NCBI GenBank assembly: GCA_000004985.1
Contig: GG738961.1
DNA: 18,311 nucleotides
Reading direction: 5' to 3' (one strand)
DNA from: Naegleria gruberi
Taxonomy: Eukaryota
The position numbers and the translations under genes are program-made. Positions 1 through 18,311 of this stretch are shown piece after piece; position 1 is the first letter of the stretch; every line of letters begins with the position of its first letter. A model generated the notes under the pieces. That model searched no databases, was not told the DNA's origin, and saw only the letters and a list, made by a program, of their open reading frames with translations.

Positions 1-242
1 GAAAGACTGAACACCTCACATTCGTTCCATTATTTAATGCTCATGAATTAATTGGAGATTTCGGAAGAAAACCAGATGAAATTGTAGATTTGGCAGTAAT
101 GAAAGGAAATGATTTATATTGTGGAATGATTATGTGTAGAGAAGGAATTCAAAAAGGAATAATTGAAATGGAAAATTATTTACGGAGATTTGCTGTGCAC
201 AATGGAGCCATGACTTTGAGTGATGTCACTTTGCATTTCTAA
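1..242 (+). CDS. C-terminal ~79 codons of an unidentified protein-coding gene; the 5' part lies outside the window
   Basis: Frame 3 is open from position 3 to the TAA at 240-242. It translates as ...FVPLFNAHELIGDFGRKPDEIVDLAVMKGNDLYCGMIMCREGIQKGIIEMENYLRRFAVHNGAMTLSDVTLHF*. Codon usage matches the other genes here (AGA, CAA, GGA, GAA). A single clean stop is followed by AT-rich 3' flank. I do not recognise the family. Confidence 0.45.
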   Translation, partial: KTEHLTFVPLFNAHELIGDFGRKPDEIVDLAVMKGNDLYCGMIMCREGIQKGIIEMENYLRRFAVHNGAMTLSDVTLHF

Positions 243-732
243 TAATTTTAGTACGTCATTCTGTAATCTCCAAAATATTCAAAATCCATCTCGTTTTAAT
301 AAATTCCTCACAAAATGAAACTCTTTTGTAAAGTTGTAACTGCCAATGTTCTGTTTATTGTGAATTTTGGAAGTTTGACAATCTTCTTTTATCCATGTTC
401 ACTCGTAGTAACCATCGGTAAAGAAATGAGCTATGTTAAGTTTCGGTTCAGTGTTTGAGTTGATAATAATTTGCAATTTAAACAAGAGACAATAAACCTG
501 GTCTTTATTATTCTAAATTACACTAATTCAAAGTTTATTCTAGAATTGCAAACTTCATTTCCCTGTGCATTGGAACTCTTCGTAATTGCAATGAAACAAA
601 TGAAAGAGGTAGTAACTTTCGAACAATGAACTTGCTATTCTCCACAAGTTTAAATCAAACCTCCGTTCAGTTCGTATCCAAACAAAATCAAAAAAAACAG
701 AAACTTTAATTATAACCTACCATATCAAAATA

Positions 733-1873
733 ATGGATCTCTACATTCCTTCTGATTTAAACAATTGTGATGATGATTTTTGTGACGAAATGTTGCCAGT
801 TGAAGAAAAATTAGAAAGAAGAATGGATGAATTGACAATTTTAGATGGTGATGCATTTGTCTCAAACACAACAAGCAATTCCCAAACAACAGGTGCTTGG
901 ATTCGTGCTAAACATTTGGAAGAAGAAGGTTATGATCAAGAATTGGTTGACCACAGTGAAAATTTTGTCGATTTGGTTATTGTAATGGATTGTACTGGAT
1001 CAATGTCTGGTGAAATTGAAGTTGCCAAACGAACTGTCACTACTATCATCTCAACACTTCATGAAAAGTTTCAATCTGATTTGAGATTTTCAGCTGTCAG
1101 TTATAGAGATCACACTGATGATTATGCAGTTAAGGAATTCCCATTTACAAAGGATTTAAATAAGGCAAAGGGTTATATCAATACAATGTCAGCTCAAGGT
1201 GGAGGTGATCATCCAGAAGCTTTGGCATCAGCTCTCTATGTCATTAATGAAATGCCATTTAATAAGAAGGGAAAGAAGATTGTTGTTTGGGTTGCTGATG
1301 CTCCTCCACATGGAATGAAATGTTATTGATTGGATCAAATTGGGATCTGCTCTCCAGGAGAAGAATGTTGTCTTTTATGGAATTTTGTGTGAAAGAGCAA
1401 AGGATGATCAACAATTGACCTTGTTTATGGATTTTTTGACAACTAAAACTGATGGTAAATGTTTACTCTTAACAGATGCTAATAAGATTCCAAATTTGGT
1501 GATTAATGGTTGTGTGGAAGATGAAGATATGGACAATCTTGTTGCAAAGAAAATTAAAGAATTGGGAGAAGAGAAGGTCAATAATTTGGGAATGGATGAT
1601 TTACTTAAACTTATTCACAATGAAACATCCTCTGAAAAGGTTGCCCAAGTTAAAACCTTTGAAATTGCCTCAACCAGAACTAAGAATTTGATGCAATATT
1701 CAACCTTATCTGATATGCAATGTGATGATTTTGTTTCAGCTCAGAATGTCATGACTAGAAATGATGATTGTGAGGCAGAGAGCGATTCATTTGATGATTA
1801 TGGAGGTGTTTACTACAAAGCACCAACAATGGAAAAGGTGGCAAAGGCCTATTCCAGAAATTTGAGAAAGTAA
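733..1873 (+). CDS. von Willebrand factor type A (vWA) domain protein. It is coded in two overlapping frames (733-1329 and 1319-1873) that need a +1 shift near 1320-1327, so it is a frameshifted gene, a pseudogene or an assembly error
   Basis: The ATG at 733 sits in an A-rich context (caaaataATGg). ORF1 carries vWA hallmarks: a hydrophobic beta strand plus a MIDAS-like DxTGSM (DLVIVMDCTGSMSGEI), then FSAVSYRDH, GGGDHPEALASAL and KIVVWVADAPPHG. The frame-1 stop is a TGA at 1327-1329. Frame 2 is open from 1319 (NVIDWIKLGSALQEKNVVFYGILCERAKDDQQL...) to the TAA at 1871-1873, with the same codon bias and a charged C-terminus. No canonical intron reconciles the frames: the only GT is at 1322, and the AGs at 1356, 1359 and 1362 give 36, 39 and 42 nt introns that read t+ga. 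Removing one T in tgttattga would fuse the frames into a ~375 aa product. Confidence 0.65.
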
Positions 1874-1901
1874 TTTTGCATTTTTGTAAATAGTGTACAT
1901 A

Positions 1902-1907
1902 AATAAA
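1902..1907 (+). promoter_or_regulatory. candidate AATAAA polyadenylation signal for the vWA gene
   Basis: An AATAAA hexamer lies ~30 nt downstream of the TAA stop at 1871-1873. The region is AT-rich, so chance occurrence is likely. Confidence 0.2.
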
Positions 1908-1954
1908 TAGAATTTCGAGAATATTTATTAAACTATAGGATAGGCATTCTAATT

Positions 1955-2693
1955 GGGTTTGGTTAGGATTCAGAGTTGATTTATTTGGGTTATTTAAGAG
2001 ATTACTTAGTGAAGATTCATATCATTGATTATATTTCTTATCGTCTATAAATGATGTAAATTTGATGGTTTCATTTCTTGTATTGATAGATATTTAAAGG
2101 TCAGGTCAGTACTAACTTTTGAATTATGGACTTTGAGAAGTCAAATGTTTGGGACGTGAATCTACTCATTAGATTGAATAGGTTTTGCTAATAAAAGAAC
2201 ATTTCATTGATTTATTGATTATAACGGTCAAATTGAGTTGAATGGAAGTGAATCTAATGTTGATTCATCGTGGATGGGTAGTTTCGCCACGAAGTGGTGC
2301 AACTACCAACCTTTGTAGATTGAATCAGGTTGATTTTCATGCAATATGAAATATAGCATTATCAAGAGTGTGATTGTTCACCAATTCAATGATCAATATT
2401 CAATAATCGGTTTGATTTCAATCAATAGCTTGATCATCAAGCTTTGATTTAATATTCCAGTAATCAACGGCAGTCTATTTTTAAATTTAATCAAAGACCA
2501 TATATAGTATCTAGACTTTTATGAAACTATCTAGATGTGTTCTATATTGAATAATATATTTGAAAATGAGAAGAATTAACTCTTCTATTGAGTTTTATTG
2601 GTATTGCAAGGTATTTCGATTATAATAATCTACACAGAAATCACACTTGAAATATAAACTGTATTACAATGTATGAGAAACATAACGGTGGGG
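1955..2693. repeat. subtelomeric repeat family, copy A (739 bp visible, truncated by the gap at 2694)
   Basis: It starts with GGGTTTGGTTAGGATTCAGAGTTGATTTATTTGGG. It is co-linear and ~95% identical by eye with 9241-9968 (copy B) and 12797-13560 (copy C). The shared internal landmarks are: gtcaggtcagtactaac, caatagcttgatcatcaagctttga (a palindromic core) and ctacacagaaatcacacttgaaatataaactgta. Confidence 0.8.
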
Positions 2694-3023
2694 NNNNNNN
2701 NNNNNNNNNNNNNNNNNNNNNNNNNNNNNNNNNNNNNNNNNNNNNNNNNNNNNNNNNNNNNNNNNNNNNNNNNNNNNNNNNNNNNNNNNNNNNNNNNNNN
2801 NNNNNNNNNNNNNNNNNNNNNNNNNNNNNNNNNNNNNNNNNNNNNNNNNNNNNNNNNNNNNNNNNNNNNNNNNNNNNNNNNNNNNNNNNNNNNNNNNNNN
2901 NNNNNNNNNNNNNNNNNNNNNNNNNNNNNNNNNNNNNNNNNNNNNNNNNNNNNNNNNNNNNNNNNNNNNNNNNNNNNNNNNNNNNNNNNNNNNNNNNNNN
3001 NNNNNNNNNNNNNNNNNNNNNNN
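2694..3023. other. assembly gap (330 N), with a further single N at 3037
   Basis: Run of n characters. Confidence 0.97.
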
Positions 3024-3703
3024 AATTCATATGGTANATATGGAAATATTCTATAATTACTTTTCAAGGCAATTTTGCAAAATTCCAAATTAGATTTTAA
3101 ATTTTCAGATAAATATCTAAATGATGTTTCTGAATTTTTAATTGAATTCAGTGCTATACCCTTGTTATTCTTAACGTCTTCATTTGTAACGTATTTCATC
3201 AATGATCCATTTATAGAAAGTGCCATATTACACAATTCAATGTCAGATCTCAATTCTTGTGATGCAAATTCAAATGCTTGAACATTACTTTGCAATGCTA
3301 TTTTAACTAATTCTCTATCATTTTGATAATTTGGAAAATATTTCAATAAATTTCCATTTCTAGAAAGTATAATTTTCATAATATTGCTGTTACTGGTCAA
3401 TAGTTTGGATTGATATTTAATTAATTGATAAGTTAACATTTTAATATTGTAATCACTAGAATTTTTCAAACTTGTTTCAATTAACTCTTCATCATTTAAA
3501 ATTTTATCATATTCACTCTCCGGAAATTTTTCATAATTGATCAATAATTCATCTCCATCTTTTTTTACAATTTCCAATCTTTCACTTTGAAGTGTATTTA
3601 AAGTGAATTTACTTGATGAAAAACGAGCCAATGATGATGAACTGAAGAGCTGTGGTTTTATCAATTTGTGTGTTAAAACACCAAGCTTGACAAGTTGTTT
3701 CAT
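3024..3703 (-). CDS. DUF4116-like repeat protein with an N-terminal mitochondrial-presequence-like segment; partial, with the 3' end lost in the gap
   Basis: On the minus strand the ATG at 3703-3701 sits in caaaaaaaaATGaaa context. About 226 codons are open down to the gap with no stop seen. Tandem ~30-aa units (LKYFPNYQNDRELVKIALQSNVQAFEFASQELRSDIELCNMALSINGSLMKYVTNEDVKNNKGIALNSIKNSETSFRYLSENLKSNLEFCKIALKSN) fit the DUF4116 aL.yas.eL.nd.e.v..A...ng pattern. This is from memory and not searched. The first 41 residues (MKQLVKLGVLTHKLIKPQLFSSSSLARFSSSKFTLNTLQSE) are basic and hydroxylated with no acidic residue. Confidence 0.55.
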
Positions 3704-3734
3704 TTTTTTTTGATTGGTAAAGCTTTGTTCATAT

Positions 3735-4030
3735 CAAGTTCTGGTTCCGATCACAAGCCTGTCCAACCTTGTATGCTTCTAGTTGAACTACTGGTGTTGT
3801 TTTGGACTCTGGTGATGGTGCCTGCCACTGTTCCAATTTATGAAGGTTATGCTTTGCCACACTCTTCATCCAAACATTCATCATCCTCAAAATGACCATT
3901 ATCAACAGATGATAAAGTGTGGAGATTGCAGCATTGCCAAATACAATTCCGACACTTCTTGGTAGTTGCCAGCTGGCAGGTTGGGACAAGTGGCCTTAAT
4001 AGATTTAAGAGTGTTGTCAGGTCCCGCCAA
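3735..4030. other. GC-rich island (~45-50% GC against ~30% background) of unknown nature: ncRNA, internal exon or insertion
   Basis: Composition shifts abruptly (gttctggttccgatcacaagcctgtccaacc ... gtcaggtcccgccaattccc). The overlapping ORFs on both strands (3695-3895 + and 3729-3989 -) start only at TTG, with no in-frame ATG. The block ends 25 nt upstream of the DUF4116 gene's ATG on the minus strand. Confidence 0.3.
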
Positions 4031-4576
4031 TTCCCTTTGTAAAATAAAAGGCTATTTTTACCTTAAAATCGATGTAGTTTTGAACTAATATGAATTGGAT
4101 GAATCGACTAGTACGTATTTATTTAAGGCTGTGATATTCCGATCATCATCATCATTATTATAGTTGGTTAACAGGACGATTTATCATCATCAACAACAAA
4201 AACAAGAACAGCTTCCGAATCAGATCAAACCACAGAGGGTAGGAAGTTGCAACTCTGCTATCAAAGGTCCTGGTGTTTTTTGCTTGCTAACTTTGACGAC
4301 ACGTTTGTACCCTCATTGTTGCACAAATACCACTCTCAATTGCTTAAATGTTAGTATCATGATTAATTAATTATTAAGACTTGTTCTCTTTTCAGAAATA
4401 CATCTCTTCAATAATAACACACTGTAAGTAGTAAATGAGAATATCATCATGACTAATATATCAGAATTTAAACGATCTATTTTAATTGGTAAAGTGTAGA
4501 TTTATTTCAATCTGAATGAAGGTTTTCTTGAACAATTTTCTAATAACAATAATATAACAATAACAGTAAAGTGACC

Positions 4577-5025
4577 ATGATAAAGGAGTGGAACTCTTTT
4601 GTAAGTATAATATCACTCAACATTTAATAATCAAAGAGGTCGCAGCAGTTTAAGTATTTCAGATTATGTAACAATGTAATGAATTGATTCATTTAAGGTA
4701 GGTTTATCATTATCAAGAAAATTGTTCAAAAGAACAGCATACTCAAACTTATCTTTTACATTGGACTAATGTCCCATCAACCAAGAAGACTTATGAATTT
4801 CCTGAAAGTGGAAATGTAGAAATTATTTATATTTATCACGATGAGCTCTTTTCAAATATTCAAATTGTGACAAAAGACACTGTTATTCCAATTACTATTC
4901 CAATTAAATTACAAATATCGAATGTGGATATCCCAAAACAATTACCACAAACACTCTCATTAAGTGACTCGGTCTTTCCACAGGAAAGAGTTTCGCTGAA
5001 AAATGTTTCCTGGAAATTCCAGTAA
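4577..5025 (+). CDS. candidate spliced protein-coding gene of uncertain structure. The ATG at 4577 plus 7 codons is followed by a canonical 62-nt intron (4601-4662). A 107-codon ATG-less ORF (4702-5025) lies downstream
   Basis: A textbook donor (ttttGTAAGTat at 4601) pairs with an acceptor (agtatttcAG at 4661-4662). Further donor and acceptor pairs lie at 4350/4394-4395 (aatGTTAGT ... ctcttttcAG) and 4424/4463-4464 (actGTAAGT ... atatcAG). The 4702-5025 ORF reads VYHYQENCSKEQHTQTYLLHWTNVPSTKKTYEFPESGNVEIIYIYHDELFSNIQIVTKDTVIPITIPIKLQISNVDIPKQLPQTLSLSDSVFPQERVSLKNVSWKFQ*. I could not assemble a consistent exon chain by hand. Confidence 0.2.
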
Positions 5026-5745
5026 ACAATATTGATTCATCCAAATATCCAAAAACTATTATTCGGAGTGTTGTTGATGAAGTATTTGAATGGTACTATT
5101 CGAAGAAAGTTTGGTTGATGATGAAGTACATGTTGAAATATGGTCAATGTATATTTTGAATATATACATGTACCTATCTTGATGAAAACAAAATTCCAAT
5201 CTATGAAACTCGAATATGTATTGCTATATACTATTACAAATAATCCCACATTTGAATTTCTGATAATGGTCCAGTACATCGGAAGATATTGGCCAATTAG
5301 TGAAAAATAACTTTTGTCAAAATAATACTATTCTCAAATTAAAGTCTACAAATACTATTGTTATAATGATGGTAAAAATTAATGATGATGGTTGGTGTGT
5401 GTTCTGATGATGATTCACCAACTTGAATTTTTCCAATATCAAAATTACTATCTAATTCCATAACGATAAACTTCCACATAAAACTACTATTTTTACTATT
5501 ATATTGATGATGTATAGATGATGTATAGATGATGAGGTTCAATTCTTGGAGTGGGAAGATGAAGAACCACTCCGAAAATAAGCTACTCATAAAATTGATA
5601 TTTTTTATGAATGCAAGATACTTCTTTGTTGAGGTCGCTGTGAATATTCTTTCGATGTCTTTGAGGTTCAAAACTGTGCAATTAGCTTCGGACTCAAAAC
5701 AATTAAGGAAGTATTGCTTCCATTTTTATTTTGCTTTACTGGATT

Positions 5746-5783
5746 TTCCAGGAAAGATTTCTTTAGGAAACTCTTTCCTGGAA
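5746..5783. repeat. perfect 12-bp inverted repeat (TTCCAGGAAAGA ... TCTTTCCTGGAA) with a 14-nt spacer. It is a hairpin in the 3' flank of the minus-strand gene
   Basis: The arms lie at 5746-5757 and 5772-5783 and are exact reverse complements. The hairpin lies 64-101 nt beyond the stop of the 5847-6329 minus-strand CDS. Confidence 0.5.
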
Positions 5784-5846
5784 TACCCCAGCCAGAAATC
5801 TTTCCGGCCACACTTGTCGTTATCTTTAGCAACCATTTTTACTATT

Positions 5847-6329
5847 TTACAACAAACTTTTTGCCTCTGTTGCTAACACCACAAAGTCGTCCAGGGTCTG
5901 TGGTGGCGTATTGCCTCCGGCAAGTTGCGCTAATTGGGCAAACATCATCAATCCTCTGACTTTGTCTGACCTATTGGCACAAGTGTTTGCTAAGCTGAAA
6001 ATATCATTGAACTCAGACTCAATAGTTTGGAAGAACTCAATGAAATCCATTCCCGTTATGTACATTGGATCAATATTTGTTTTTGTTGAGAATTGATACA
6101 AGAAAAAGAATGGATCGGTAGTTAAAATTTGTGCAATTTCCTCATCACTAAGTGGGCTTACAATATTTTTAACGCTTTCTTTGAAGTTGTGATTTAGGAT
6201 TGTTAATTCTGTCACTGTATCAACCAAAGGCATATCAAACTTATCCATTTGTTTTAGTATTTCACAATAGACAAGAAGAGCCTCCTTTTTCGTAGCTCGG
6301 ATAGAGAGTACAAGAATTGTATCAAACAT
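5847..6329 (-). CDS. hypothetical protein, probably the terminal exon of a larger minus-strand gene
   Basis: The minus-strand ORF runs from the ATG at 6329-6327 (MFDTILVLSIRATKKEALLVYCEILKQMDKF...LAQLAGGNTPPQTLDDFVVLATEAKSLL*) to the stop at 5849-5847. The same frame stays open a further ~100 nt upstream (ENGVLYPKLNIHIRHTRGFLLGHTTPDWLSVRLLSD) to a TAA near 6433 with no in-frame ATG, so an upstream exon is likely. The residue composition is protein-like. I do not recognise the family. Confidence 0.45.
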   Translation of the reverse strand: MFDTILVLSIRATKKEALLVYCEILKQMDKFDMPLVDTVTELTILNHNFKESVKNIVSPLSDEEIAQILTTDPFFFLYQFSTKTNIDPMYITGMDFIEFFQTIESEFNDIFSLANTCANRSDKVRGLMMFAQLAQLAGGNTPPQTLDDFVVLATEAKSLL

Positions 6330-6578
6330 ATCTGACAACAGTCGCACAGATAACCAATCTGGAGTGGTGTGACCAAGAAGGAAGCCTCTCGTGTGTCTGA
6401 TGTGAATGTTCAGTTTGGGATATAAAACACCATTTTCTTAGTAGTACCGTTTGGTGGTTTAGTGTGTTTCTCGATCTAAATTCGAGTTTGAATATAATTT
6501 TTGTACATATTCACAATTTATTTTGTTGTTATATGAGAATTGATTTTTTGTATTTTATTTTTTTGATAAATTATTGGG

Positions 6579-6581
<3 letters not shown>

Positions 6582-6609
<28 letters not shown>
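6582..6609. repeat. (AT)14 dinucleotide microsatellite
   Basis: It reads atatatatatatatatatatatatatat. Confidence 0.95.
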
Positions 6610-6612
<3 letters not shown>

Positions 6613-6922
6613 AACAAAAATTATATTTATCTATGTTAGAAAAATCATTTCCCTTTTATTCTTCATCATGCTCCTCCTCATGTTTTTTACACATCCTGTC
6701 TTTATCAAATCCCATTCTCACTACATCCTTTTCATCATAATTCCTCGCAAATTCATTTATCTGTTCAGATTACATTTATTTACCCCTTAAAAGTGATTTT
6801 CCATTCTTCATTTTACATGATATTTTCGGTGATTTCTTGGTAAGAACTCTTTATTAGTAGACTTTTTGTATTTCATTTTTTTCTGTCAACAGGTTTCACA
6901 TATTATAAACAACAAAAGGTTT

Positions 6923-9214
6923 NNNNNNNNNNNNNNNNNNNNNNNNNNNNNNNNNNNNNNNNNNNNNNNNNNNNNNNNNNNNNNNNNNNNNNNNNNNNNN
7001 NNNNNNNNNNNNNNNNNNNNNNNNNNNNNNNNNNNNNNNNNNNNNNNNNNNNNNNNNNNNNNNNNNNNNNNNNNNNNNNNNNNNNNNNNNNNNNNNNNNN
7101 NNNNNNNNNNNNNNNNNNNNNNNNNNNNNNNNNNNNNNNNNNNNNNNNNNNNNNNNNNNNNNNNNNNNNNNNNNNNNNNNNNNNNNNNNNNNNNNNNNNN
7201 NNNNNNNNNNNNNNNNNNNNNNNNNNNNNNNNNNNNNNNNNNNNNNNNNNNNNNNNNNNNNNNNNNNNNNNNNNNNNNNNNNNNNNNNNNNNNNNNNNNN
7301 NNNNNNNNNNNNNNNNNNNNNNNNNNNNNNNNNNNNNNNNNNNNNNNNNNNNNNNNNNNNNNNNNNNNNNNNNNNNNNNNNNNNNNNNNNNNNNNNNNNN
7401 NNNNNNNNNNNNNNNNNNNNNNNNNNNNNNNNNNNNNNNNNNNNNNNNNNNNNNNNNNNNNNNNNNNNNNNNNNNNNNNNNNNNNNNNNNNNNNNNNNNN
7501 NNNNNNNNNNNNNNNNNNNNNNNNNNNNNNNNNNNNNNNNNNNNNNNNNNNNNNNNNNNNNNNNNNNNNNNNNNNNNNNNNNNNNNNNNNNNNNNNNNNN
7601 NNNNNNNNNNNNNNNNNNNNNNNNNNNNNNNNNNNNNNNNNNNNNNNNNNNNNNNNNNNNNNNNNNNNNNNNNNNNNNNNNNNNNNNNNNNNNNNNNNNN
7701 NNNNNNNNNNNNNNNNNNNNNNNNNNNNNNNNNNNNNNNNNNNNNNNNNNNNNNNNNNNNNNNNNNNNNNNNNNNNNNNNNNNNNNNNNNNNNNNNNNNN
7801 NNNNNNNNNNNNNNNNNNNNNNNNNNNNNNNNNNNNNNNNNNNNNNNNNNNNNNNNNNNNNNNNNNNNNNNNNNNNNNNNNNNNNNNNNNNNNNNNNNNN
7901 NNNNNNNNNNNNNNNNNNNNNNNNNNNNNNNNNNNNNNNNNNNNNNNNNNNNNNNNNNNNNNNNNNNNNNNNNNNNNNNNNNNNNNNNNNNNNNNNNNNN
8001 NNNNNNNNNNNNNNNNNNNNNNNNNNNNNNNNNNNNNNNNNNNNNNNNNNNNNNNNNNNNNNNNNNNNNNNNNNNNNNNNNNNNNNNNNNNNNNNNNNNN
8101 NNNNNNNNNNNNNNNNNNNNNNNNNNNNNNNNNNNNNNNNNNNNNNNNNNNNNNNNNNNNNNNNNNNNNNNNNNNNNNNNNNNNNNNNNNNNNNNNNNNN
8201 NNNNNNNNNNNNNNNNNNNNNNNNNNNNNNNNNNNNNNNNNNNNNNNNNNNNNNNNNNNNNNNNNNNNNNNNNNNNNNNNNNNNNNNNNNNNNNNNNNNN
8301 NNNNNNNNNNNNNNNNNNNNNNNNNNNNNNNNNNNNNNNNNNNNNNNNNNNNNNNNNNNNNNNNNNNNNNNNNNNNNNNNNNNNNNNNNNNNNNNNNNNN
8401 NNNNNNNNNNNNNNNNNNNNNNNNNNNNNNNNNNNNNNNNNNNNNNNNNNNNNNNNNNNNNNNNNNNNNNNNNNNNNNNNNNNNNNNNNNNNNNNNNNNN
8501 NNNNNNNNNNNNNNNNNNNNNNNNNNNNNNNNNNNNNNNNNNNNNNNNNNNNNNNNNNNNNNNNNNNNNNNNNNNNNNNNNNNNNNNNNNNNNNNNNNNN
8601 NNNNNNNNNNNNNNNNNNNNNNNNNNNNNNNNNNNNNNNNNNNNNNNNNNNNNNNNNNNNNNNNNNNNNNNNNNNNNNNNNNNNNNNNNNNNNNNNNNNN
8701 NNNNNNNNNNNNNNNNNNNNNNNNNNNNNNNNNNNNNNNNNNNNNNNNNNNNNNNNNNNNNNNNNNNNNNNNNNNNNNNNNNNNNNNNNNNNNNNNNNNN
8801 NNNNNNNNNNNNNNNNNNNNNNNNNNNNNNNNNNNNNNNNNNNNNNNNNNNNNNNNNNNNNNNNNNNNNNNNNNNNNNNNNNNNNNNNNNNNNNNNNNNN
8901 NNNNNNNNNNNNNNNNNNNNNNNNNNNNNNNNNNNNNNNNNNNNNNNNNNNNNNNNNNNNNNNNNNNNNNNNNNNNNNNNNNNNNNNNNNNNNNNNNNNN
9001 NNNNNNNNNNNNNNNNNNNNNNNNNNNNNNNNNNNNNNNNNNNNNNNNNNNNNNNNNNNNNNNNNNNNNNNNNNNNNNNNNNNNNNNNNNNNNNNNNNNN
9101 NNNNNNNNNNNNNNNNNNNNNNNNNNNNNNNNNNNNNNNNNNNNNNNNNNNNNNNNNNNNNNNNNNNNNNNNNNNNNNNNNNNNNNNNNNNNNNNNNNNN
9201 NNNNNNNNNNNNNN
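6923..9214. other. assembly gap (2292 N)
   Basis: Run of n characters. An exon-like start (ATG at 6817, GTAAGA donor at 6840, caacAG acceptor at 6891-6892) runs into it. Confidence 0.97.
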
Positions 9215-9240
9215 CGAAAAATTATCCAATCATCCAGGCT

Positions 9241-11922
9241 CTTGTTAGGATTCAGAGTTGATTTATTTGGGTTATTTAAGAGATTACTTAGTGAAGATTT
9301 ATATCATTGATTATATTTCTTATCATCTATAAATGATGTAAATTTGATGGTTTCATTTCTTGTATTGATAGATATTTAAAGGTCAGGTCAGTACTAACTT
9401 TTGAATTATGGACTTTTAGAAGTCAAATGTTTGGGACGTGAATCTACTCATTAGATTGAATAGGTATTGCTAATAAAGTAACATTTCATTGATTTATTGA
9501 TTATAACGGTCAAATTGAGTTGAATGGAAGTGAATCTAATGTTGATTCATCGTGGAATGGTAGTTTCGCCACGTACAAACCTTTGTAGATTGAATCAGGT
9601 TGATTTGCATCTCTCCAATATGTAGCATTATCAAGAGAGTGATTATTCTCCAATTCAATGACCAATATTCAATAATCGGTTTGATTTGAATCAATAGCTT
9701 GATCAACAAGCTTTGAATCAAGATTCCAGTAATCAACGGCAGTCTATTTTTAAATTTGACCAAAGACCATATATAGTATCTTGACTTTCATGATCTGGCA
9801 ACTATCTAGATGTGTTCTTTTTTGAATAATCTATTTGAAAATGAGAAGAATTAACTCTTCTATTGAGTTTTATTGGTATTTCATGGTTTTACGATTATAA
9901 TAATCTACACAGAAATCACACTTGAAATATAAACTGTATTACAATGTATGAGAAACATAATGGTGGTGGAATTAATCAATAACTCGTTGAAATGACTGAG
10001 ATGGAATGTAAACTATGGTCTATTTGTTATGTAACGGTGACTAGACAGTGTCAATTTCATCAAATTATTTCAAACTGATAACATTCAATAAAAAAACCAC
10101 TCTATACATCAAATATACCATATAGAATGAGTTTCAATATTTAATATTGTGAACTGACTCTGTTGGATACCAGCTCTATAAATATAACAATATGAAAAGT
10201 GTCAACATTCAATTTCACATTCATGTTACTATGAAGAGTCATCATTATATCATCTAAATAGGTTGTATATCAAGTTTCAGTGGAATTGACTGTCTACATA
10301 TTGAGATGTGCATACTAAGGTTAAAGAAGTGTCACCTTCACTGATTACTGACATGAATATAACAATTGAATGTATTATTCTTGTATAATTAATTCATTAT
10401 TCAATGATTTTGATATGATGGTAAAATTTAATTTTGAAATTAAGATTCTTCCCTATTGATTACCTTAGATGTTCCTTAGTTGACTTGAAGATATTGAGCC
10501 ATGAATATAAAACTTTCTCAGATTGTTCTCCTCATCAAGAGGAGTGTATTCATATTTGATACTTGTTTGACATTTTGAAAAATGAATGAGATGGAGTATA
10601 TTCTATATGTTGAAATGTGACAATTTGACAGATTGTTATTATTATCATATTGAATTCAATTCTAAAACACTAAAATTGATACCAGTTGTATATAAGTGTG
10701 ACTAAATGTATCTGGTAAAGTTACGTGATGGTTGGATATACTTTCATTGAGACAGTGTGTACACTTGGATATAAGCACTATTGACATTAAATATTTACTG
10801 ATTGACTGAATGAAAGTATCATGAATTGTTTCAAAACGTGTATAGATGTATATAAATGATGTATTGAATGTGTATTATCAATTCTAGACTAATTGCATAT
10901 AAAATAAGTGATTTAGAGCATAATCTTTGATTTTATGTCAAAGTTCTATAGTATAGTGATAGAGTTGACAACTCAATATCTACTGAGCCAATATTCATGA
11001 AATTGATATTATATGCTAATTAGAGTGTCTACATATTATGATATCAATTTCATTGAAATTGGAGTTGATTCTATATCCTTCAGATTTCTTCAATGAAATA
11101 TCACCATGTACTATCTAACGGATGCATTTCTTGAAATGAAATTATATAATTTGATGAAAGTCCACTTTATTTGAGATGTAGAACACGATATTATCATTTA
11201 TTTTGAGATTGGTAACTTTTCCTAAAGTCTCATCCTTAATGGTCTTAATTGACTAAAAGAGGTCAAGGAGAGATTTCAAAACATAAAATAAATGATATTT
11301 TCGAGATGTACTAATGATTTCCAATCGATTGATATGTATTTTGTAGATTGAGGATGTGGTTTTCTGTATTCAAGATTTCCTCCTGATCTTCCCAAGTCAA
11401 CCTTGATAAATCACTCTTTACCTTACTGAAAGATGGAATGTTCACCAAAACGTCTAAAAACTGAATTATATACATTATCGGAGATGTGGAACATGATGGT
11501 AATGTTTCATAAAGTGGTCATTTTCCAGAAATTCATCCGTGTCCATAGTTTATCAGATGGCATGTTAGCCATGTGTGATTGAGGGAAGAAATCTTTAAAT
11601 ATTAAAGTTAAAATAAATTTGATATTCGATGTTTACTCATCAAATGGAACATTTTCATATTAGGATTCAATATGTTTTGATGAGAAACTCAAAAGTTATC
11701 GTTGACCTCTTTTACCTCACAACTTCCCTTTTCACTTGATACTTTTATATCTACAGACTTGAACTTTTATAATTTGATATGAAAGTGATTATGAATGTTA
11801 TTAATGATGATATAGACTATATAATCTCATTAAAGGATTTTGAAATTAACATTCTTCCTATAGTTTCATTTTACAAATTTTAATCTGACATTATTTACAA
11901 AGTTAATATTTTATAAATTGAA
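9241..11922. repeat. subtelomeric repeat family, copy B (~2.7 kb, the only copy fully sequenced)
   Basis: Positions 9241-9968 align with copy A and 9241-10199 with copy C's pre-gap part. Positions ~11560-11922 align with copy C's post-gap tail (17219-17586). No ORF is credible; only a 75-aa low-complexity ORF is present. The copy ends at a GGGTTTGGTTATCGG motif (11923-11937). Confidence 0.8.
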
Positions 11923-12796
11923 GGGTTTGGTTATCGGAACCTCGGATACCTCTTACTCCAATCTCTTATTGATTTAAGATTTTGAAATTGTTTATTATTG
12001 AATTTTTATAAAGAGTATTGACACGAATCAGAAGCTTCTTATTGTGACAACACTTGATAGAAGAATGGGAAAGTGGTTCAACATATTGAAAGTGAACAAT
12101 CTCAAGATTTGGAACTCTTCTTCATGAAGAGGAGGTTATTGGGTGGTGACTAGAGAGAAACATTTCCTTGTAGCTTTTCTACTAGTAAATGATTAATTGA
12201 CCAAGATGTTGACCTATAATATGGAAACACAATAAAATTTAATAATACTGATAAATACAAGTAGTGAATATGAATGGTAATCATAATTCACTGAAAAAAT
12301 CATGATTGGATCCATTATGAGACTTTTGGAAGTCAACTTGGATGGCAATAGGGGAGCTTTCGATGTGATTAACACTTTTAAAGGGATATGAATATTTTAT
12401 TGGATAAAATATGTCATCGCTGTACTTTATCACTAAATGTTGAATATCATGATGTTATAATCTATATTTCCAATTTGGGAAATGTTGTAATGTCAATGTT
12501 TAATTGAAATATTGCCATCATACCAATAATTGATTTTATACTATAAAAATGATATTATACACTATAATTGATATATATATGAATATATGATTGTAATATT
12601 TCAATTTTAACATTTATTAATGACGTGGGTTGTTCACTAAGGTAGTAACTTTGTCATATGATAACTATCTAAGATGATATTAAAATCATTCCAAAATTGA
12701 TTCGATGAGAGTATTTGATGATTATAACATGGTAATATTGAATTGGTGTTGATTAGTACCATTCATGACATGTAAGAATGTTACCTTTTTGTCAAT

Positions 12797-15700
12797 GGGG
12801 TTTGGTTAGGATTCAGAGTTGATTTATTTGGGTTATTTAAGAGATTACTTAGTGAAGATTCATATCATTGATTATATTTCTTATCATCTATTAATGATGT
12901 TAATTTGATGGTTTCATTTCTTATATTGATAGATATTTAAAGGTCAGGTCAGTACTAACTTTTGAATTATGGACTTTGAGAATTCAAATGTTTGGGACGT
13001 GAATCTACTCATTAGATTGAATAGGTATTGCTAATAAAGGAACATTTCATTGATTTATTGATTATAACGGTCAAATTGAGTTGAATGGAAGTGAATCACA
13101 TGTTGATTCATAGTGGTTGGGTAGTTTCGCCACGAAGTGGTGCAACTACCAACCTTTGTAGATTGAATCAGGTTGATTTGCATGCAATCTGAAATATGTA
13201 GCATGATTCAAGTGATTATTCACCAATTCAATGATCAATATTCAATAATCGGTTTGATTTCAATCAATAGCTTGATCATCAAGCTTTGAATTAATATTCC
13301 AGTAATTAACGGCAGTCTATTTTTAAATTTAATCAAAGACCATATATAGTATCTTGACTTTTATGATCTGGAAACTATCTAGATGTGTTCTATATTGAAT
13401 AATCTATTTGAAAATGAGATGAATTAACTCTTCTATTGAGTTTTATTGGTATTGTATGCTATTACGATTATAATAATCTACACAAAAATCACTCTTGAAA
13501 TATAAACTGTAGTAGAACGTTTGAGAAACATAATGGTGGCGGAATTAACCAATAACTCGTTGAAATGACTGAGATGGAATGTAAACTATGGTCTATTTGT
13601 CATGTAATGGTGACTAGACCGTGTCAATTTCATCAAATTATTTCAAACTGATTACAATCAATAAAAACCCGTTCCATACATCAAACATATCATATAGAAT
13701 GAGTTTCAATATTTAACATTGTGAACTGACTCTGTTGGATACCATCTCTATAAATATAACAAGATGAAAAGNNNNNNNNNNNNNNNNNNNNNNNNNNNNN
13801 NNNNNNNNNNNNNNNNNNNNNNNNNNNNNNNNNNNNNNNNNNNNNNNNNNNNNNNNNNNNNNNNNNNNNNNNNNNNNNNNNNNNNNNNNNNNNNNNNNNN
13901 NNNNNNNNNNNNNNNNNNNNNNNNNNNNNNNNNNNNNNNNNNNNNNNNNNNNNNNNNNNNNNNNNNNNNNNNNNNNNNNNNNNNNNNNNNNNNNNNNNNN
14001 NNNNNNNNNNNNNNNNNNNNNNNNNNNNNNNNNNNNNNNNNNNNNNNNNNNNNNNNNNNNNNNNNNNNNNNNNNNNNNNNNNNNNNNNNNNNNNNNNNNN
14101 NNNNNNNNNNNNNNNNNNNNNNNNNNNNNNNNNNNNNNNNNNNNNNNNNNNNNNNNNNNNNNNNNNNNNNNNNNNNNNNNNNNNNNNNNNNNNNNNNNNN
14201 NNNNNNNNNNNNNNNNNNNNNNNNNNNNNNNNNNNNNNNNNNNNNNNNNNNNNNNNNNNNNNNNNNNNNNNNNNNNNNNNNNNNNNNNNNNNNNNNNNNN
14301 NNNNNNNNNNNNNNNNNNNNNNNNNNNNNNNNNNNNNNNNNNNNNNNNNNNNNNNNNNNNNNNNNNNNNNNNNNNNNNNNNNNNNNNNNNNNNNNNNNNN
14401 NNNNNNNNNNNNNNNNNNNNNNNNNNNNNNNNNNNNNNNNNNNNNNNNNNNNNNNNNNNNNNNNNNNNNNNNNNNNNNNNNNNNNNNNNNNNNNNNNNNN
14501 NNNNNNNNNNNNNNNNNNNNNNNNNNNNNNNNNNNNNNNNNNNNNNNNNNNNNNNNNNNNNNNNNNNNNNNNNNNNNNNNNNNNNNNNNNNNNNNNNNNN
14601 NNNNNNNNNNNNNNNNNNNNNNNNNNNNNNNNNNNNNNNNNNNNNNNNNNNNNNNNNNNNNNNNNNNNNNNNNNNNNNNNNNNNNNNNNNNNNNNNNNNN
14701 NNNNNNNNNNNNNNNNNNNNNNNNNNNNNNNNNNNNNNNNNNNNNNNNNNNNNNNNNNNNNNNNNNNNNNNNNNNNNNNNNNNNNNNNNNNNNNNNNNNN
14801 NNNNNNNNNNNNNNNNNNNNNNNNNNNNNNNNNNNNNNNNNNNNNNNNNNNNNNNNNNNNNNNNNNNNNNNNNNNNNNNNNNNNNNNNNNNNNNNNNNNN
14901 NNNNNNNNNNNNNNNNNNNNNNNNNNNNNNNNNNNNNNNNNNNNNNNNNNNNNNNNNNNNNNNNNNNNNNNNNNNNNNNNNNNNNNNNNNNNNNNNNNNN
15001 NNNNNNNNNNNNNNNNNNNNNNNNNNNNNNNNNNNNNNNNNNNNNNNNNNNNNNNNNNNNNNNNNNNNNNNNNNNNNNNNNNNNNNNNNNNNNNNNNNNN
15101 NNNNNNNNNNNNNNNNNNNNNNNNNNNNNNNNNNNNNNNNNNNNNNNNNNNNNNNNNNNNNNNNNNNNNNNNNNNNNNNNNNNNNNNNNNNNNNNNNNNN
15201 NNNNNNNNNNNNNNNNNNNNNNNNNNNNNNNNNNNNNNNNNNNNNNNNNNNNNNNNNNNNNNNNNNNNNNNNNNNNNNNNNNNNNNNNNNNNNNNNNNNN
15301 NNNNNNNNNNNNNNNNNNNNNNNNNNNNNNNNNNNNNNNNNNNNNNNNNNNNNNNNNNNNNNNNNNNNNNNNNNNNNNNNNNNNNNNNNNNNNNNNNNNN
15401 NNNNNNNNNNNNNNNNNNNNNNNNNNNNNNNNNNNNNNNNNNNNNNNNNNNNNNNNNNNNNNNNNNNNNNNNNNNNNNNNNNNNNNNNNNNNNNNNNNNN
15501 NNNNNNNNNNNNNNNNNNNNNNNNNNNNNNNNNNNNNNNNNNNNNNNNNNNNNNNNNNNNNNNNNNNNNNNNNNNNNNNNNNNNNNNNNNNNNNNNNNNN
15601 NNNNNNNNNNNNNNNNNNNNNNNNNNNNNNNNNNNNNNNNNNNNNNNNNNNNNNNNNNNNNNNNNNNNNNNNNNNNNNNNNNNNNNNNNNNNNNNNNNNN

Positions 15701-17586
15701 NNNNNNNNNNNNNNNNNNNNNNNNNNNNNNNNNNNNNNNNNNNNNNNNNNNNNNNNNNNNNNNNNNNNNNNNNNNNNNNNNNNNNNNNNNNNNNNNNNNN
15801 NNNNNNNNNNNNNNNNNNNNNNNNNNNNNNNNNNNNNNNNNNNNNNNNNNNNNNNNNNNNNNNNNNNNNNNNNNNNNNNNNNNNNNNNNNNNNNNNNNNN
15901 NNNNNNNNNNNNNNNNNNNNNNNNNNNNNNNNNNNNNNNNNNNNNNNNNNNNNNNNNNNNNNNNNNNNNNNNNNNNNNNNNNNNNNNNNNNNNNNNNNNN
16001 NNNNNNNNNNNNNNNNNNNNNNNNNNNNNNNNNNNNNNNNNNNNNNNNNNNNNNNNNNNNNNNNNNNNNNNNNNNNNNNNNNNNNNNNNNNNNNNNNNNN
16101 NNNNNNNNNNNNNNNNNNNNNNNNNNNNNNNNNNNNNNNNNNNNNNNNNNNNNNNNNNNNNNNNNNNNNNNNNNNNNNNNNNNNNNNNNNNNNNNNNNNN
16201 NNNNNNNNNNNNNNNNNNNNNNNNNNNNNNNNNNNNNNNNNNNNNNNNNNNNNNNNNNNNNNNNNNNNNNNNNNNNNNNNNNNNNNNNNNNNNNNNNNNN
16301 NNNNNNNNNNNNNNNNNNNNNNNNNNNNNNNNNNNNNNNNNNNNNNNNNNNNNNNNNNNNNNNNNNNNNNNNNNNNNNNNNNNNNNNNNNNNNNNNNNNN
16401 NNNNNNNNNNNNNNNNNNNNNNNNNNNNNNNNNNNNNNNNNNNNNNNNNNNNNNNNNNNNNNNNNNNNNNNNNNNNNNNNNNNNNNNNNNNNNNNNNNNN
16501 NNNNNNNNNNNNNNNNNNNNNNNNNNNNNNNNNNNNNNNNNNNNNNNNNNNNNNNNNNNNNNNNNNNNNNNNNNNNNNNNNNNNNNNNNNNNNNNNNNNN
16601 NNNNNNNNNNNNNNNNNNNNNNNNNNNNNNNNNNNNNNNNNNNNNNNNNNNNNNNNNNNNNNNNNNNNNNNNNNNNNNNNNNNNNNNNNNNNNNNNNNNN
16701 NNNNNNNNNNNNNNNNNNNNNNNNNNNNNNNNNNNNNNNNNNNNNNNNNNNNNNNNNNNNNNNNNNNNNNNNNNNNNNNNNNNNNNNNNNNNNNNNNNNN
16801 NNNNNNNNNNNNNNNNNNNNNNNNNNNNNNNNNNNNNNNNNNNNNNNNNNNNNNNNNNNNNNNNNNNNNNNNNNNNNNNNNNNNNNNNNNNNNNNNNNNN
16901 NNNNNNNNNNNNNNNNNNNNNNNNNNNNNNNNNNNNNNNNNNNNNNNNNNNNNNNNNNNNNNNNNNNNNNNNNNNNNNNNNNNNNNNNNNNNNNNNNNNN
17001 NNNNNNNNNNNNNNNNNNNNNNNNNNNNNNNNNNNNNNNNNNNNNNNNNNNNNNNNNNNNNNNNNNNNNNNNNNNNNNNNNNNNNNNNNNNNNNNNNNNN
17101 NNNNNNNNNNNNNNNNNNNNNNNNNNNNNNNNNNNNNNNNNNNNNNNNNNNNNNNNNNNNNNNNNNNNNNNNNNNNNNNNNNNNNNNNNNNNNNNNNNNN
17201 NNNNNNNNNNNNNNNNNNTCAACATAGTTGACCGTATGATGGTTGAGGGAAGAAATCTTTAAATATGAAAGTTAAAATAAATTTGATATTCGATGTATAC
17301 TCATCAAATGGAACATTTTCATGGCAGGATTCAATATGTTTAGATGAGAAACTCAAAAGTTATAGTTGACCTATTGTACCTCACAACTTCCCTTTTCACT
17401 TGATACTTTTATACCTACAGACATGAACTTTTGAAATTTTATATGAAAGTGATTATGAATGTTGTTAACGATGATATAGACTATATAATCTCATTAAAGG
17501 ATTTTGAAATTATCATTCTTCCTATAGTTGTATATTTGAAATTTTAATCTGATATTATTTACAAAGTTAATATTTTATAAATTGAA
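12797..17586. repeat. subtelomeric repeat family, copy C (starts GGGGTTTGGTTAGGATTCAGAGTTG; interior replaced by the gap)
   Basis: Positions 12797-13771 are ~95-97% identical to copy A and copy B starts. Positions 17219-17586 match the copy B tail. An ~870 bp spacer (11923-12796) with no second copy in the window separates copies B and C. Confidence 0.75.
13772..17218. other. assembly gap (3447 N) inside repeat copy C
   Basis: Run of n characters. The equivalent interval in copy B is only ~1.36 kb (10200-11560). Confidence 0.97.
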
Positions 17587-17671
17587 AAACTAAATATACC
17601 ACGTTGTTCTACTCATCATTTCCTATCGAATGATATAAAATTTAATGATATTTGAATAAGTTTATAATTTT

Positions 17672-17722
17672 GGGCTAGGGTTTGAACGTTGGGTTTAGAA
17701 GAATTGGGTTTGGATTAGAGTT
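17672..17722 (+). repeat. interstitial cluster of degenerate telomere-like motifs
   Basis: It reads gggctagggtttgaacgttgggtttagaagaattgggtttggattagagttg. It begins with the same tgggctagg junction motif found at the true telomere junction (18021-18029). It ends in gggtttggattagagttg, which resembles the repeat-unit start gggtttggttaggattcagagttg. Confidence 0.5.
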
Positions 17723-18021
17723 GTTTTGATTTGTTACTTCGGTGGCACCATGGTCTTTATGATCTAATATAGAGTCTTTAAGTGAATCTTGGGCTTTTGG
17801 AAAGGTTTTTCAGTAAAGTTTTAAAAAAAGTATATACTTTCTATCTAGATATCGAGATTTGGTGTATTTGTTGTTTGCATTGTTATTTGGAAAGTGGTAA
17901 AGATTTCGATATTCTTTGTTGGGTTTGGTTATCGTTTCGTACTCATTGGATCTTCATTATTATTGAAATACATAATCAATGATATACATCATTAAATAGG
18001 TTACAATCTCAGCTATCCAGT

Positions 18022-18311
18022 GGGCTAGGTTGGGTTTGGGTTTGGGTTTGGGTTTGGGTTTGGGTTTGGGTTTGGGTTTGGGTTTGGGTTTGGGTTTGGG
18101 TTTGGGTTTGGGTTTGGGTTTGGGTTTGGGTTTGGGTTTGGGTTTGGGTTTGGGTTTGGGTTTGGGTTTGGGTTTGGGTTTGGGTTTGGGTTTGGGTTTG
18201 GGTTTGGGTTTGGGTTTGGGTTTGGGTTTGGGTTTGGGTTTGGGTTTGGGTTTGGGTTTGGGTTTGGGTTTGGGTTTGGGTTTGGGTTTGGGTTTGGGTT
18301 GGGTTGGGTTG
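18022..18311 (+). repeat. telomere repeat array (GGGTTT)n, G-strand 5'->3' toward the window end
   Basis: A degenerate junction (gggctaggtt) is followed by ~45 perfect GGGTTT hexamers in constant phase from 18032 to 18295. The last 16 nt are GGGTT x3 + G (18296-18311). Confidence 0.92.

What the first reader, a model, noticed from the sequence alone, without database searches (positions are those of the whole stretch)
17672..18031. Relic telomere junction ~300 bp inside the present telomere
The interval 17672-17722 holds a cluster of degenerate telomere units: gggctagggtttgaacgttgggtttagaagaattgggtttggattagag. It opens with the same tgggctagg motif that forms the present telomere junction at 18021-18029, ccagtgggctaggttgggtttggg. 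A second gggtttggttatcg motif lies at 17921. This looks like an older, decayed chromosome end that was later extended by ~300 bp of unique sequence and a new telomere. Alternatively the junction plus seed may have been duplicated.
Basis: seen in the sequence. Interest (0 to 1): 0.5.

Follow-up and report, generated by a model that had tools for sequence, protein, structure and literature searches.

The report
Decayed telomere tract inside Naegleria chromosome end
About 350 bp inside the telomere of a small Naegleria gruberi scaffold lies a real, decayed stretch of telomere repeats that opens with the same 9-base motif as the present telomere junction; this is the ordinary kind of internal telomere relic seen in the patchwork DNA next to chromosome ends in humans and yeast, here seen in an amoeba whose chromosome ends have not been described.

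Summary
The window is a whole 18,311-bp Naegleria gruberi scaffold ending in 47 TTGGGT repeats. TTTGGG is the published candidate telomere repeat of this species. Positions 17668-17722 are the best match to the telomere repeat anywhere in the non-telomeric sequence (score 34; shuffles averaged 17.7 and never exceeded 28). TGGGCTAGG occurs only at 17671 and 18021.

The relic reading is partly supported.
- The tract matches an ideal array in 42 of 66 alignment columns, which fits neutral decay.
- It points towards the chromosome end.
- Its first half is homologous to the present junction. Its second half is homologous to the edge of a repeat (R1) found three times upstream.
- Shorter telomere-like tracts, all in the same orientation, sit exactly at the breakpoints of the duplicated blocks R1 and R2.

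This is the arrangement known from human and yeast subtelomeres: internal telomere-like tracts at the boundaries of duplicated blocks.

I could not tell "old end later extended" from "junction plus seed duplicated". No other N. gruberi chromosome end was reachable with these tools. The 298 bp between tract and telomere matches nothing else in the scaffold.

Verdict: a new member of a known kind, of modest interest.

The parts
18030..18311 (+). Terminal telomere array, (TTGGGT)x47. The G-rich strand runs 3' outward. The last ~16 nt read TTGGG units, probably low-quality read end.
   Evidence: TTTGGG is the candidate N. gruberi telomere repeat in PMC3622300.
18021..18029 (+). Present junction motif TGGGCTAGG, immediately before the array.
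   Evidence: One of only two copies in the window.
17668..17722 (+). Internal degenerate telomere tract (the finding). It holds the 9-mer TGGGCTAGG at 17671-17679 and perfect GGGTTT at 17678, 17691 and 17706. It matches an ideal array in 42 of 66 alignment columns.
17702..17739 (+). Distal half of the tract plus about 17 nt beyond it. Homologous to the proximal edge of repeat R1 (AATTGGGTTTGG..ATT.AGAGTTG.TTT.ATTT..GTTA).
   Evidence: score 39 against a null of 21.1 +/- 3.5, reached by 1 of 500 shuffles. One search, with the shared 10-mer excluded: 11 of 2000 shuffles and 8 of 1595 real 40-mers reach the score.
17723..17920 (+). 198-bp spacer with no significant match elsewhere in the scaffold. 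It is G+T-rich (66%) and holds the most G+T-rich 100-nt window of the scaffold (17851, 73%).
17919..17934 (+). Second telomere-like tract, TTGGGTTTGGTTATCG. Its 14-mer GGGTTTGGTTATCG is identical to 11923-11936.
17935..18020 (+). 86-bp non-repeat segment between the second tract and the present junction.
17227..17586 (+). Terminal copy of repeat R2, 92% identical to 11564-11922. Its left end is cut by the scaffold gap.
11564..11937 (+). Internal copy of R2 (11564-11922), followed directly by GGGTTTGGTTATCGG (11923-11937). The 92% homology with the terminal copy stops at exactly this point.
1951..2691 (+). R1 copy A. Homology with copy C begins exactly at AATTGGGTTTGGTTAGG. The upstream flank (3' side of the vWA pseudogene) is unrelated.
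12794..13771 (+). R1 copy C. It begins at AATGGGGTTTGGTTAGG, has an unrelated upstream flank and runs into a gap.
9237..10199 (+). R1 copy B. Homology begins at GTTAGGATTC, just after the position of the telomere-like motif, which this copy lacks.
13772..17218 (.). Scaffold gap (3447 N). It separates the 1,093-bp terminal contig from the rest of the scaffold.

Best explanation
The tract at 17668-17722 is a subtelomeric interstitial telomere sequence: about 9-11 TTTGGG repeats, with their junction motif, that once belonged to a terminal telomere of Naegleria gruberi and were then moved inside.

**How it became internal (inferred).** A rearrangement placed about 300 bp plus a new junction and telomere distal to the old repeats. 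This could have been a chromosome-tip translocation, or break-induced copying from another end that started inside telomere-repeat homology.

**Decay.** Once internal, telomerase no longer renewed the repeats and they decayed neutrally. They now match an ideal array in about 64% of alignment columns.

**Repeated process.** The same thing happened several times on this chromosome arm. Short telomere-like tracts, all pointing towards the end, sit at the breakpoints of blocks R1 (three copies) and R2 (two copies). The last 350 bp holds compact versions of three edge types:
- junction type, TGGGCTAGG...
- R1-edge type, AATTGGGTTTGG...AGAGTTG
- GGGTTTGGTTATCG type

**Shown:** that the tract is real, its orientation, its homology to the junction and to the R1 edge, and the coincidence of tracts with breakpoints.

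**Inferred:** the origin from a true telomere and the recombination mechanism.
For: 1. Identity of the end. The window is a complete N. gruberi scaffold: protein P0005 is 100% identical and sits on a contig of 18311 bp, and the vWA homologues are N. gruberi proteins. TTTGGG is the published candidate telomere repeat.
2. The tract is far above chance.
3. Orientation. Telomere-like 8-mers number 17 on the G strand and 0 on the C strand, against 1.3 and 0.4 expected.
4. Homology to the present junction. The 9-mer is unique to the two sites, and a 17-base match appears once a 9-nt indel is allowed.
5. Homology of 17702-17739 to the R1 edge.
6. Breakpoints fall at the tracts. R1 copies A and C share nothing upstream of AAT(T/G)GGGTTTGG. 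R2 identity stays at 92% up to 11922 and ends where GGGTTTGGTTATCGG begins.
7. Three perfect hexamers fit uniform decay at about 0.3 per site (P = 0.05-0.12), so selection on the motif need not be invoked.
8. The best-preserved tract is the one farthest from the telomere. This argues for a discrete relic rather than a gradient of variant repeats.
9. The same arrangement is documented in human subtelomeres: internal (TTAGGG)n-like tracts oriented towards the telomere, almost always at duplicon boundaries, with stacks of small subterminal duplicons beside them (PMC2323237). Subtelomeric ITSs in yeast and human are covered in PMC6410037.
Against: - No second chromosome end of this genome could be examined, so paralogy of the 17723-18020 segment with other ends is untested.
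- That segment matches nothing else in the scaffold.
- The tract lies 85 bp distal to the end of clear R2 homology, not exactly at it.
- In a tract that has decayed by about 30%, perfect survival of the 9-mer is mildly unexpected (0.7^9 is about 0.04, my own arithmetic). The junction-like part may therefore be younger, conserved or re-created.
- The whole structure sits in one 1,093-bp Sanger contig beyond a 3.4-kb gap. It rests on few reads, and its link to the scaffold rests on mate pairs.
Confidence: 0.6

Rival explanations
1. Local duplication plus chromosome healing. The motif TGGGCTAGG with its telomere-like seed existed in two copies about 350 bp apart, for example as the start of a short subterminal repeat unit. 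The chromosome then broke or eroded into the distal copy, and telomerase used that copy's GGGTTT-like seed to build the present telomere. On this view the internal copy is the surviving seed, not a former chromosome end.
For: - The present array starts at the position homologous to where the internal tract becomes telomere-like, directly after the same 9-mer.
- A duplication explains the identical 9-mer without needing a donor end that carries the same junction.
- Internal telomere-like seeds are known preferred sites of de novo telomere addition in yeast (own knowledge: sites of repeated telomere addition).
Against: - No similarity was detected upstream of the two 9-mers. The only significant local alignment between 17640-17730 and 17990-18040 starts at the 9-mer itself.
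- No second copy of the 298-bp unit is visible, so only about 17-26 nt are shared.
- The tract's distal half groups with R1 edges rather than with the array.
Confidence: 0.2
2. The junction motif TGGGCTAGG and the GGGTTT cluster are a functional or templated element. It could be a conserved subterminal binding platform for telomere-repeat-binding proteins. It could also be a sequence written by telomerase itself when it starts a new telomere, through read-through past the template boundary. In either case it would arise independently at each end or healing event.
For: - CTAGG is otherwise absent from about 12 kb of sequence, yet occurs twice in the same 9-mer next to telomere repeats.
- The 9-mer is perfectly kept in an otherwise decayed tract.
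Against: - Only two instances exist, both in one 1.1-kb contig.
- The number of perfect hexamers fits neutral decay.
- None of the 47 repeats of the array contains a GGGCTA variant.
- A metagenome scan for CTAGG next to (GGGTTT)3 found only unrelated, mostly GC-rich arrays and no Naegleria-like end.
Confidence: 0.08
3. Terminal transposition. R1-type blocks are telomere-targeting retroelements, like endonuclease-deficient Penelope-like elements or HeT-A/TART. They attach by a constant end to telomere repeats and are capped again by telomerase, which leaves short telomere tracts between successive insertions.
For: - R1 has a constant edge that abuts a telomere-like tract, with different proximal flanks in copies A and C.
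- R2 ends at different points in its two copies, each soon followed by telomere-like sequence.
- About 6 kb of the scaffold is hidden in gaps next to these repeats.
Against: - There is no ORF longer than 83 codons anywhere between 9.2 and 18.0 kb, and stops are frequent in all six frames. No reverse transcriptase is visible.
- Tandem Repeats Finder reports no homopolymer A or T run in the scaffold, though I made no targeted search for poly(A) tails or other terminal retroelement features.
- tblastn of the window's own genes shows no coding remnants in the repeats.
Confidence: 0.05
4. Chance, or an artefact. On this view the cluster is a by-product of G/T-rich composition, or of a chimeric or poorly assembled Sanger contig at the scaffold end.
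For: - The terminal contig is only 1,093 bp and lies beyond a 3.4-kb gap.
- The local sequence is G+T-rich.
Against: - Shuffles that keep the local composition essentially never reproduce the cluster.
- The tract, the spacer and the junction all lie inside one contig rather than across a join.
- The tract has independent homologues at the R1 edges, in other contigs of the scaffold.
Confidence: 0.05

Closest known systems
[quoted passage not shown] 2007, PMC2323237)
   Same: - Degenerate copies of the species' own telomere repeat lie inside the subtelomere and point towards the telomere.
- They coincide with the boundaries of duplicated blocks.
- Small subterminal duplicons are stacked next to them.
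- They are read as traces of chromosome-tip translocations.
   Different: - The tracts here are much shorter: 8-55 bp, against mostly 150-200 bp in human.
- The blocks are about 0.4 to over 1 kb and non-coding.
- The repeat is TTTGGG.
- The evidence comes from one scaffold of one heterolobosean amoeba. Paralogy between chromosome ends has not been shown.
Yeast X - internal TG1-3 - Y' arrangement (subtelomeric ITS; reviewed in PMC6410037)
   Same: Short internal telomere tracts separate subtelomeric repeat modules and are left behind when a distal module is added by recombination.
   Different: No conserved X-like or Y'-like elements, and no helicase ORF, are recognisable here. Module identities across ends are unknown.
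Sites of repeated de novo telomere addition, or chromosome healing at internal telomere-like seeds (own knowledge; healing by telomerase is mentioned in PMC6410037)
   Same: The present array starts right after a motif that, in its internal copy, is followed by telomere-like seeds.
   Different: No unbroken reference allele is available to show that a break was healed here. No experimental evidence exists.
Telomere-specific retroelements: endonuclease-deficient Penelope-like elements, HeT-A/TART, SART/TRAS (own knowledge)
   Same: Blocks with a constant edge alternate with short telomere tracts, all in one orientation.
   Different: No reverse transcriptase or any long ORF is present in the assembled repeat sequence.

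Membership tests
Subtelomeric interstitial telomeric sequence (ITS) at duplicon boundaries | Made of degenerate copies of the organism's own telomere repeat | tested here: met
   Wrap-around alignment score 34, against a null maximum of 28. 42 matches in 66 columns. Three perfect GGGTTT hexamers.
Subtelomeric interstitial telomeric sequence (ITS) at duplicon boundaries | G-strand orientation towards the chromosome end | tested here: met
   All telomere-like 8-mers (17) lie on the same strand as the terminal G-rich array, and none on the other.
Subtelomeric interstitial telomeric sequence (ITS) at duplicon boundaries | Lies within the subtelomere, close to a terminal array | tested here: met
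   298 bp separate the tract from the junction at 18021.
Subtelomeric interstitial telomeric sequence (ITS) at duplicon boundaries | Coincides with a boundary of duplicated blocks | tested here: inconclusive
   Met for the sister tracts at 1951, 12794 and 11923. The tract itself lies 85 bp beyond the end of clear R2 homology, and its distal half matches the R1 edge.
Subtelomeric interstitial telomeric sequence (ITS) at duplicon boundaries | Flanking blocks are shared with other chromosome ends | not testable with these tools
The metagenome and GTDB scans returned nothing related.
Telomere variant repeats of the proximal telomere | Contiguous with the canonical array, with degeneracy increasing inward | tested here: not met
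   298 bp of sequence that is not recognisably telomere repeat intervene. The best-preserved tract is the one farthest from the array.
De novo telomere addition at an internal seed (healed break) | The array begins abruptly after a short G/T-rich seed that also exists, unbroken, elsewhere | tested here: inconclusive
   The 9-mer before the array recurs at 17671 followed by telomere-like seeds. No intact distal continuation is available for comparison.
Telomere-specific retroelements | Encodes reverse transcriptase, or is a truncated copy of an element that does | tested here: not met
   No ORF over 83 codons in 9.2-18.0 kb, with stops throughout all six frames. About 6 kb is hidden in gaps, so this holds for assembled sequence only.

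The most novel reading that the evidence does not exclude
TGGGCTAGG followed by GG(G)TT may be a conserved junction element of Naegleria gruberi chromosome ends. It could be written by telomerase when a telomere is started de novo (template-boundary read-through), or kept as a preferred seed and binding platform. If so, the internal copy marks a hotspot of repeated telomere formation rather than a passive relic.
Probability: 0.1. Interest if true: 0.55.

Novelty: new member of a known kind. Interest (0 to 1): 0.27.

Why it matters
Telomere biology is almost unexplored in Heterolobosea. The literature library held only the in-silico proposal that N. gruberi uses TTTGGG (PMC3622300), and nothing on its subtelomeres. 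This scaffold shows a genuine terminal TTTGGG array. It also shows that the adjoining DNA is a non-coding patchwork of duplicated blocks joined at short, like-oriented telomere-repeat relics. That is the architecture known from human and yeast, which suggests that tip exchange between chromosome ends, or break healing, also shapes chromosome ends in this distant lineage. The recurring 9-mer at the junction is a concrete, cheap thing to test on all chromosome ends once a gap-free assembly is examined.

Tried and rejected
**Reaching other N. gruberi chromosome ends. Every route failed.**
- Exact-protein look-ups for a window ORF (17782-17982) and for N. gruberi proteins P0001, P0002 and P0005 were all "not on record".
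- Only N. lovaniensis was reachable, and that locus (L089) is internal to its contig.
- A metagenome scan for CTAGG + (GGGTTT)3 returned 88 loci. Most are GC-rich mixed GGGTTA/GGGCTA/GGGTTT arrays or otherwise unrelated, one is AT-rich with mixed G3T3/G4T3 repeats, and none is Naegleria-like.
- A GTDB scan for (GGGTTT)8 returned bacterial contigs, some with terminal arrays, with no similarity to the window.
- A protein search with the telomere translated as (WV)n/(GF)n, meant to catch ORFs called on telomere-bearing contigs, found only unrelated low-complexity proteins.

**Is the 17587-18020 segment repeated within the scaffold?** No. The best hit scored 31 bits, against a shuffled mean of 28.6.

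**Does R2 homology continue weakly past the 15-nt GGGTTTGGTTATCGG?** Only marginally; 19 of 500 shuffles reach the score.

**Is there similarity downstream of the 17919 tract to the R1 or 11923 contexts, beyond the shared motif?** Not significant.

**Other negatives**
- Coding or transposon content in the repeats: none.
- RNA genes: none in Rfam, and no tRNAs.
- Selection on the GGGTTT cores: not needed.
- Supplementary tables of PMC3622300 are not held.

Full report
**What the window is.** The sequence ends in 47 copies of TTGGGT (18030-18310, 99% matches) with the G-rich strand running 3' outward.
- A vWA-domain ORF at 733-1329 is 82% and 79% identical to two Naegleria gruberi proteins.
- An ORF at 5850-6347 on the minus strand is 100% identical to an N. 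gruberi "predicted protein". That protein's contig is 18,311 bp long, exactly the window length. The window is therefore a whole small scaffold of the N. gruberi genome assembly.
- The N runs (2694-3023, 3037, 6923-9214, 13772-17218) are most simply scaffold gaps.
- TTTGGG is the candidate telomere repeat proposed for N. gruberi from genome data (PMC3622300). I found no paper in the library that describes Naegleria subtelomeres.

**Check of the observation.**
- Outside the array, GGGTTT occurs seven times on the plus strand (1955, 11923, 12798, 17678, 17691, 17706, 17921) and once on the minus strand.
- Three copies within 50 bp never arose in 2000 dinucleotide-preserving shuffles of the scaffold. 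They arose in 1 of 5000 shuffles of the G/T-rich local stretch.
- I aligned the scaffold to a cyclic GGGTTT pattern. This singles out 17668-17722 with a score of 34. The next best scores are 22 (R1 edge) and 20 (17904-17928), and the reverse strand peaks at 18. The null maximum over 200 block shuffles has mean 17.7, sd 2.5 and highest value 28.
- TGGGCTAGG occurs only at 17671 and 18021. CTAGG alone occurs nowhere else, although composition predicts about five per strand (counts; expectation is my own calculation).
With 9 nt removed, the relic matches 17 consecutive bases of the present junction.

**What the tract looks like.**
- Against an ideal array it has 42 matches, 13 mismatches and 11 gap positions, equivalent to about 9-11 repeat units.
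- In a simulation of uniform decay at 0.30-0.35 events per site, 5-12% of arrays keep three or more perfect hexamers. The three intact GGGTTT cores therefore need no selection.
- The tract is separated from the array by 298 bp that match nothing else in the scaffold above chance.
- Those 298 bp are not neutral in composition. The scaffold's most G+T-rich 100-nt windows are concentrated between 17626 and 17950.
- The best-preserved telomere-like stretch is the one farthest from the array. This is a discrete internal tract, not the inner fringe of variant repeats of the present telomere.

A self-comparison finds two repeat families.
- R1: 1951-2691, 9237-10199 and 12794-13771, at 92-94% identity. 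All three copies run into gaps.
- R2: 11564-11922 and 17227-17586, at 92% identity.

The breakpoints are clean.
- R1 copies A and C share nothing upstream and become identical exactly at AAT(T/G)GGGTTTGGTTAGG.
- Copy B joins a different flank just after the position of that motif.
- R2 homology ends at 11922, and the next bases are GGGTTTGGTTATCGG. That 14-mer is identical to the "second motif" at 17921.
- So all three GGGTTT sites outside the last 650 bp lie at block breakpoints.

The orientation is one-sided. Telomere-like 8-mers number 17 on the G strand and none on the other, against 1.3 and 0.4 expected.

The tract itself is composite.
- Its first part is junction-like.
- Positions 17702-17739 are homologous to the R1 edge. 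The score is 39 against a null of 21.1 +/- 3.5, reached by 1 of 500 shuffles. With the shared 10-mer removed, 11 of 2000 shuffles and 8 of 1595 real 40-mers reach the score.

From 9.2 kb to the telomere there is no ORF above 83 codons, no remnant of the scaffold's genes, and no Rfam family or tRNA. The vWA gene at the proximal side has an apparent 47-nt frameshifting deletion relative to its paralogues. This is a decaying, non-coding subtelomere.

**Most likely explanation (confidence about 0.6).** The tract is a subtelomeric interstitial telomere sequence. It began as true telomere repeats with their junction motif and was moved inside when a distal piece ending in a new junction and telomere was placed beyond it. 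After that it decayed.
- The likely mechanism is chromosome-tip exchange, or break-induced copying that started within telomere-repeat homology.
- This explains why duplicated blocks start or stop at short telomere-like tracts that all point to the end.
- It also explains why the last 350 bp looks like a compact stack of three edge types.
- Shown: the tract is real, it points towards the end, it is homologous to the junction and to the R1 edge, and tracts coincide with breakpoints.
- Inferred: the origin from a terminal telomere, and the recombination mechanism.
- Human subtelomeres have the same layout. [quoted passage not shown] They are attributed to translocation of chromosome tips (PMC2323237). 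Subtelomeric ITSs in yeast and human are covered in PMC6410037.

**Rivals.**
1. Local duplication of the junction motif plus seed, followed by healing of a break at the distal copy (0.2).
   - This explains the identical 9-mer economically.
   - Against it, only about 17-26 nt are shared, and no similarity was detected upstream of the two 9-mers.
2. A templated or selected junction element (0.08).
   - This is prompted by the rarity of CTAGG and by the perfect 9-mer inside a decayed tract. Survival of all 9 bases by chance is about 0.7^9 = 0.04 (my own arithmetic).
   - Against it, there are only two instances, and the array holds no GGGCTA variant.
3. Telomere-targeting retroelements (0.05).
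   - The constant R1 edge next to telomere-like sequence fits.
   - Against it, no reverse transcriptase or long ORF is visible, though 6 kb lie in gaps.
4. Chance or artefact (0.05).
   - The terminal contig is only 1,093 bp and lies beyond a 3.4-kb gap.
   - Against it, the shuffle controls, the presence of tract and junction in one contig, and the homologues in other contigs.

**What could not be done.** The decisive comparison with other chromosome ends of the same genome was out of reach.
- N. gruberi is not in the gene-position index.
- The metagenome and GTDB scans returned nothing related.
- The telomere-peptide search found no telomere ORFs.

**Verdict.**
- The relic interpretation is partly supported.
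- The thing belongs to a well-known kind, the subtelomeric interstitial telomere tract at block boundaries, here in a lineage where it had not been described.
- Interest is modest (0.27).
- The one lead worth following is whether TGGGCTAGG is a general junction element of N. gruberi chromosome ends.

Noticed in passing
window 616-1870 (+): A vWA-domain gene that looks like a pseudogene. Compared with N. gruberi paralogues P0001 and P0002 it lacks 16 codons after HGM (1317) and has one extra base (1318). The reading frame therefore shifts and a TGA follows at 1327.
   Followed up: partly
window 17675 and 18025 (whole window scanned): CTAGG occurs only twice in about 12 kb of assembled sequence, against roughly 5 per strand expected from composition. 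Both copies sit inside the TGGGCTAGG motif next to telomere repeats.
   Followed up: partly
window 1-18020: Strong strand asymmetry of telomere-like words along the whole scaffold. There are 17 telomere-type 8-mers on the G strand and 0 on the C strand (expected 1.3 and 0.4). TTGGGT occurs 11 times forward and 0 times in reverse.
   Followed up: yes
window 17626-17950: The scaffold's most G+T-rich 100-nt windows are concentrated here (up to 73% G+T, against a mean of 53%, sd 6%). This includes the "unique" spacer between the relic and the junction, which may itself be very old telomere-derived sequence.
   Followed up: partly
window 4981-5026 and 5735-5780: Inverted repeat with 46-nt arms, 85% complementary and 708 nt apart. 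It could be the ends of a small transposon. Not examined further.
   Followed up: no
window 3038-3733 (-): A DUF4116-repeat gene (Pfam E = 2.4e-30) whose 3' part disappears into the gap at 2694-3023, directly next to R1 copy A.
   Followed up: no
window 18296-18311: The last bases of the array switch from TTTGGG to TTGGG units. This is probably a low-quality read end rather than a real variant.
   Followed up: no
window 11923-11937 vs 17586/17587: Relative to the terminal R2 copy, the internal copy carries GGGTTTGGTTATCGG like a 15-nt insertion. Weak similarity (19 of 500 shuffles reach the score) may continue for about 70 nt beyond it, with identity dropping from 92% to about 65%. That would suggest a conversion boundary.
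   Followed up: partly
loci L092, L104, L169, L172, L177, L182, L199 (GTDB bacterial assemblies): Bacterial and MAG contigs that end in runs of eight or more GGGTTT within a few bases of the contig end. Their flanks look ordinary and show no similarity to the window. The cause is unknown: artefact, contamination or real.
   Followed up: partly
loci L001-L088 (metagenome contigs): Many contigs, most of them GC-rich, carry mixed GGGTTA/GGGCTA/GGGTTT/GGGGTT arrays in their interior, in several recurring families. GGGCTA is a common variant unit there. They are unrelated to Naegleria.
   Followed up: no
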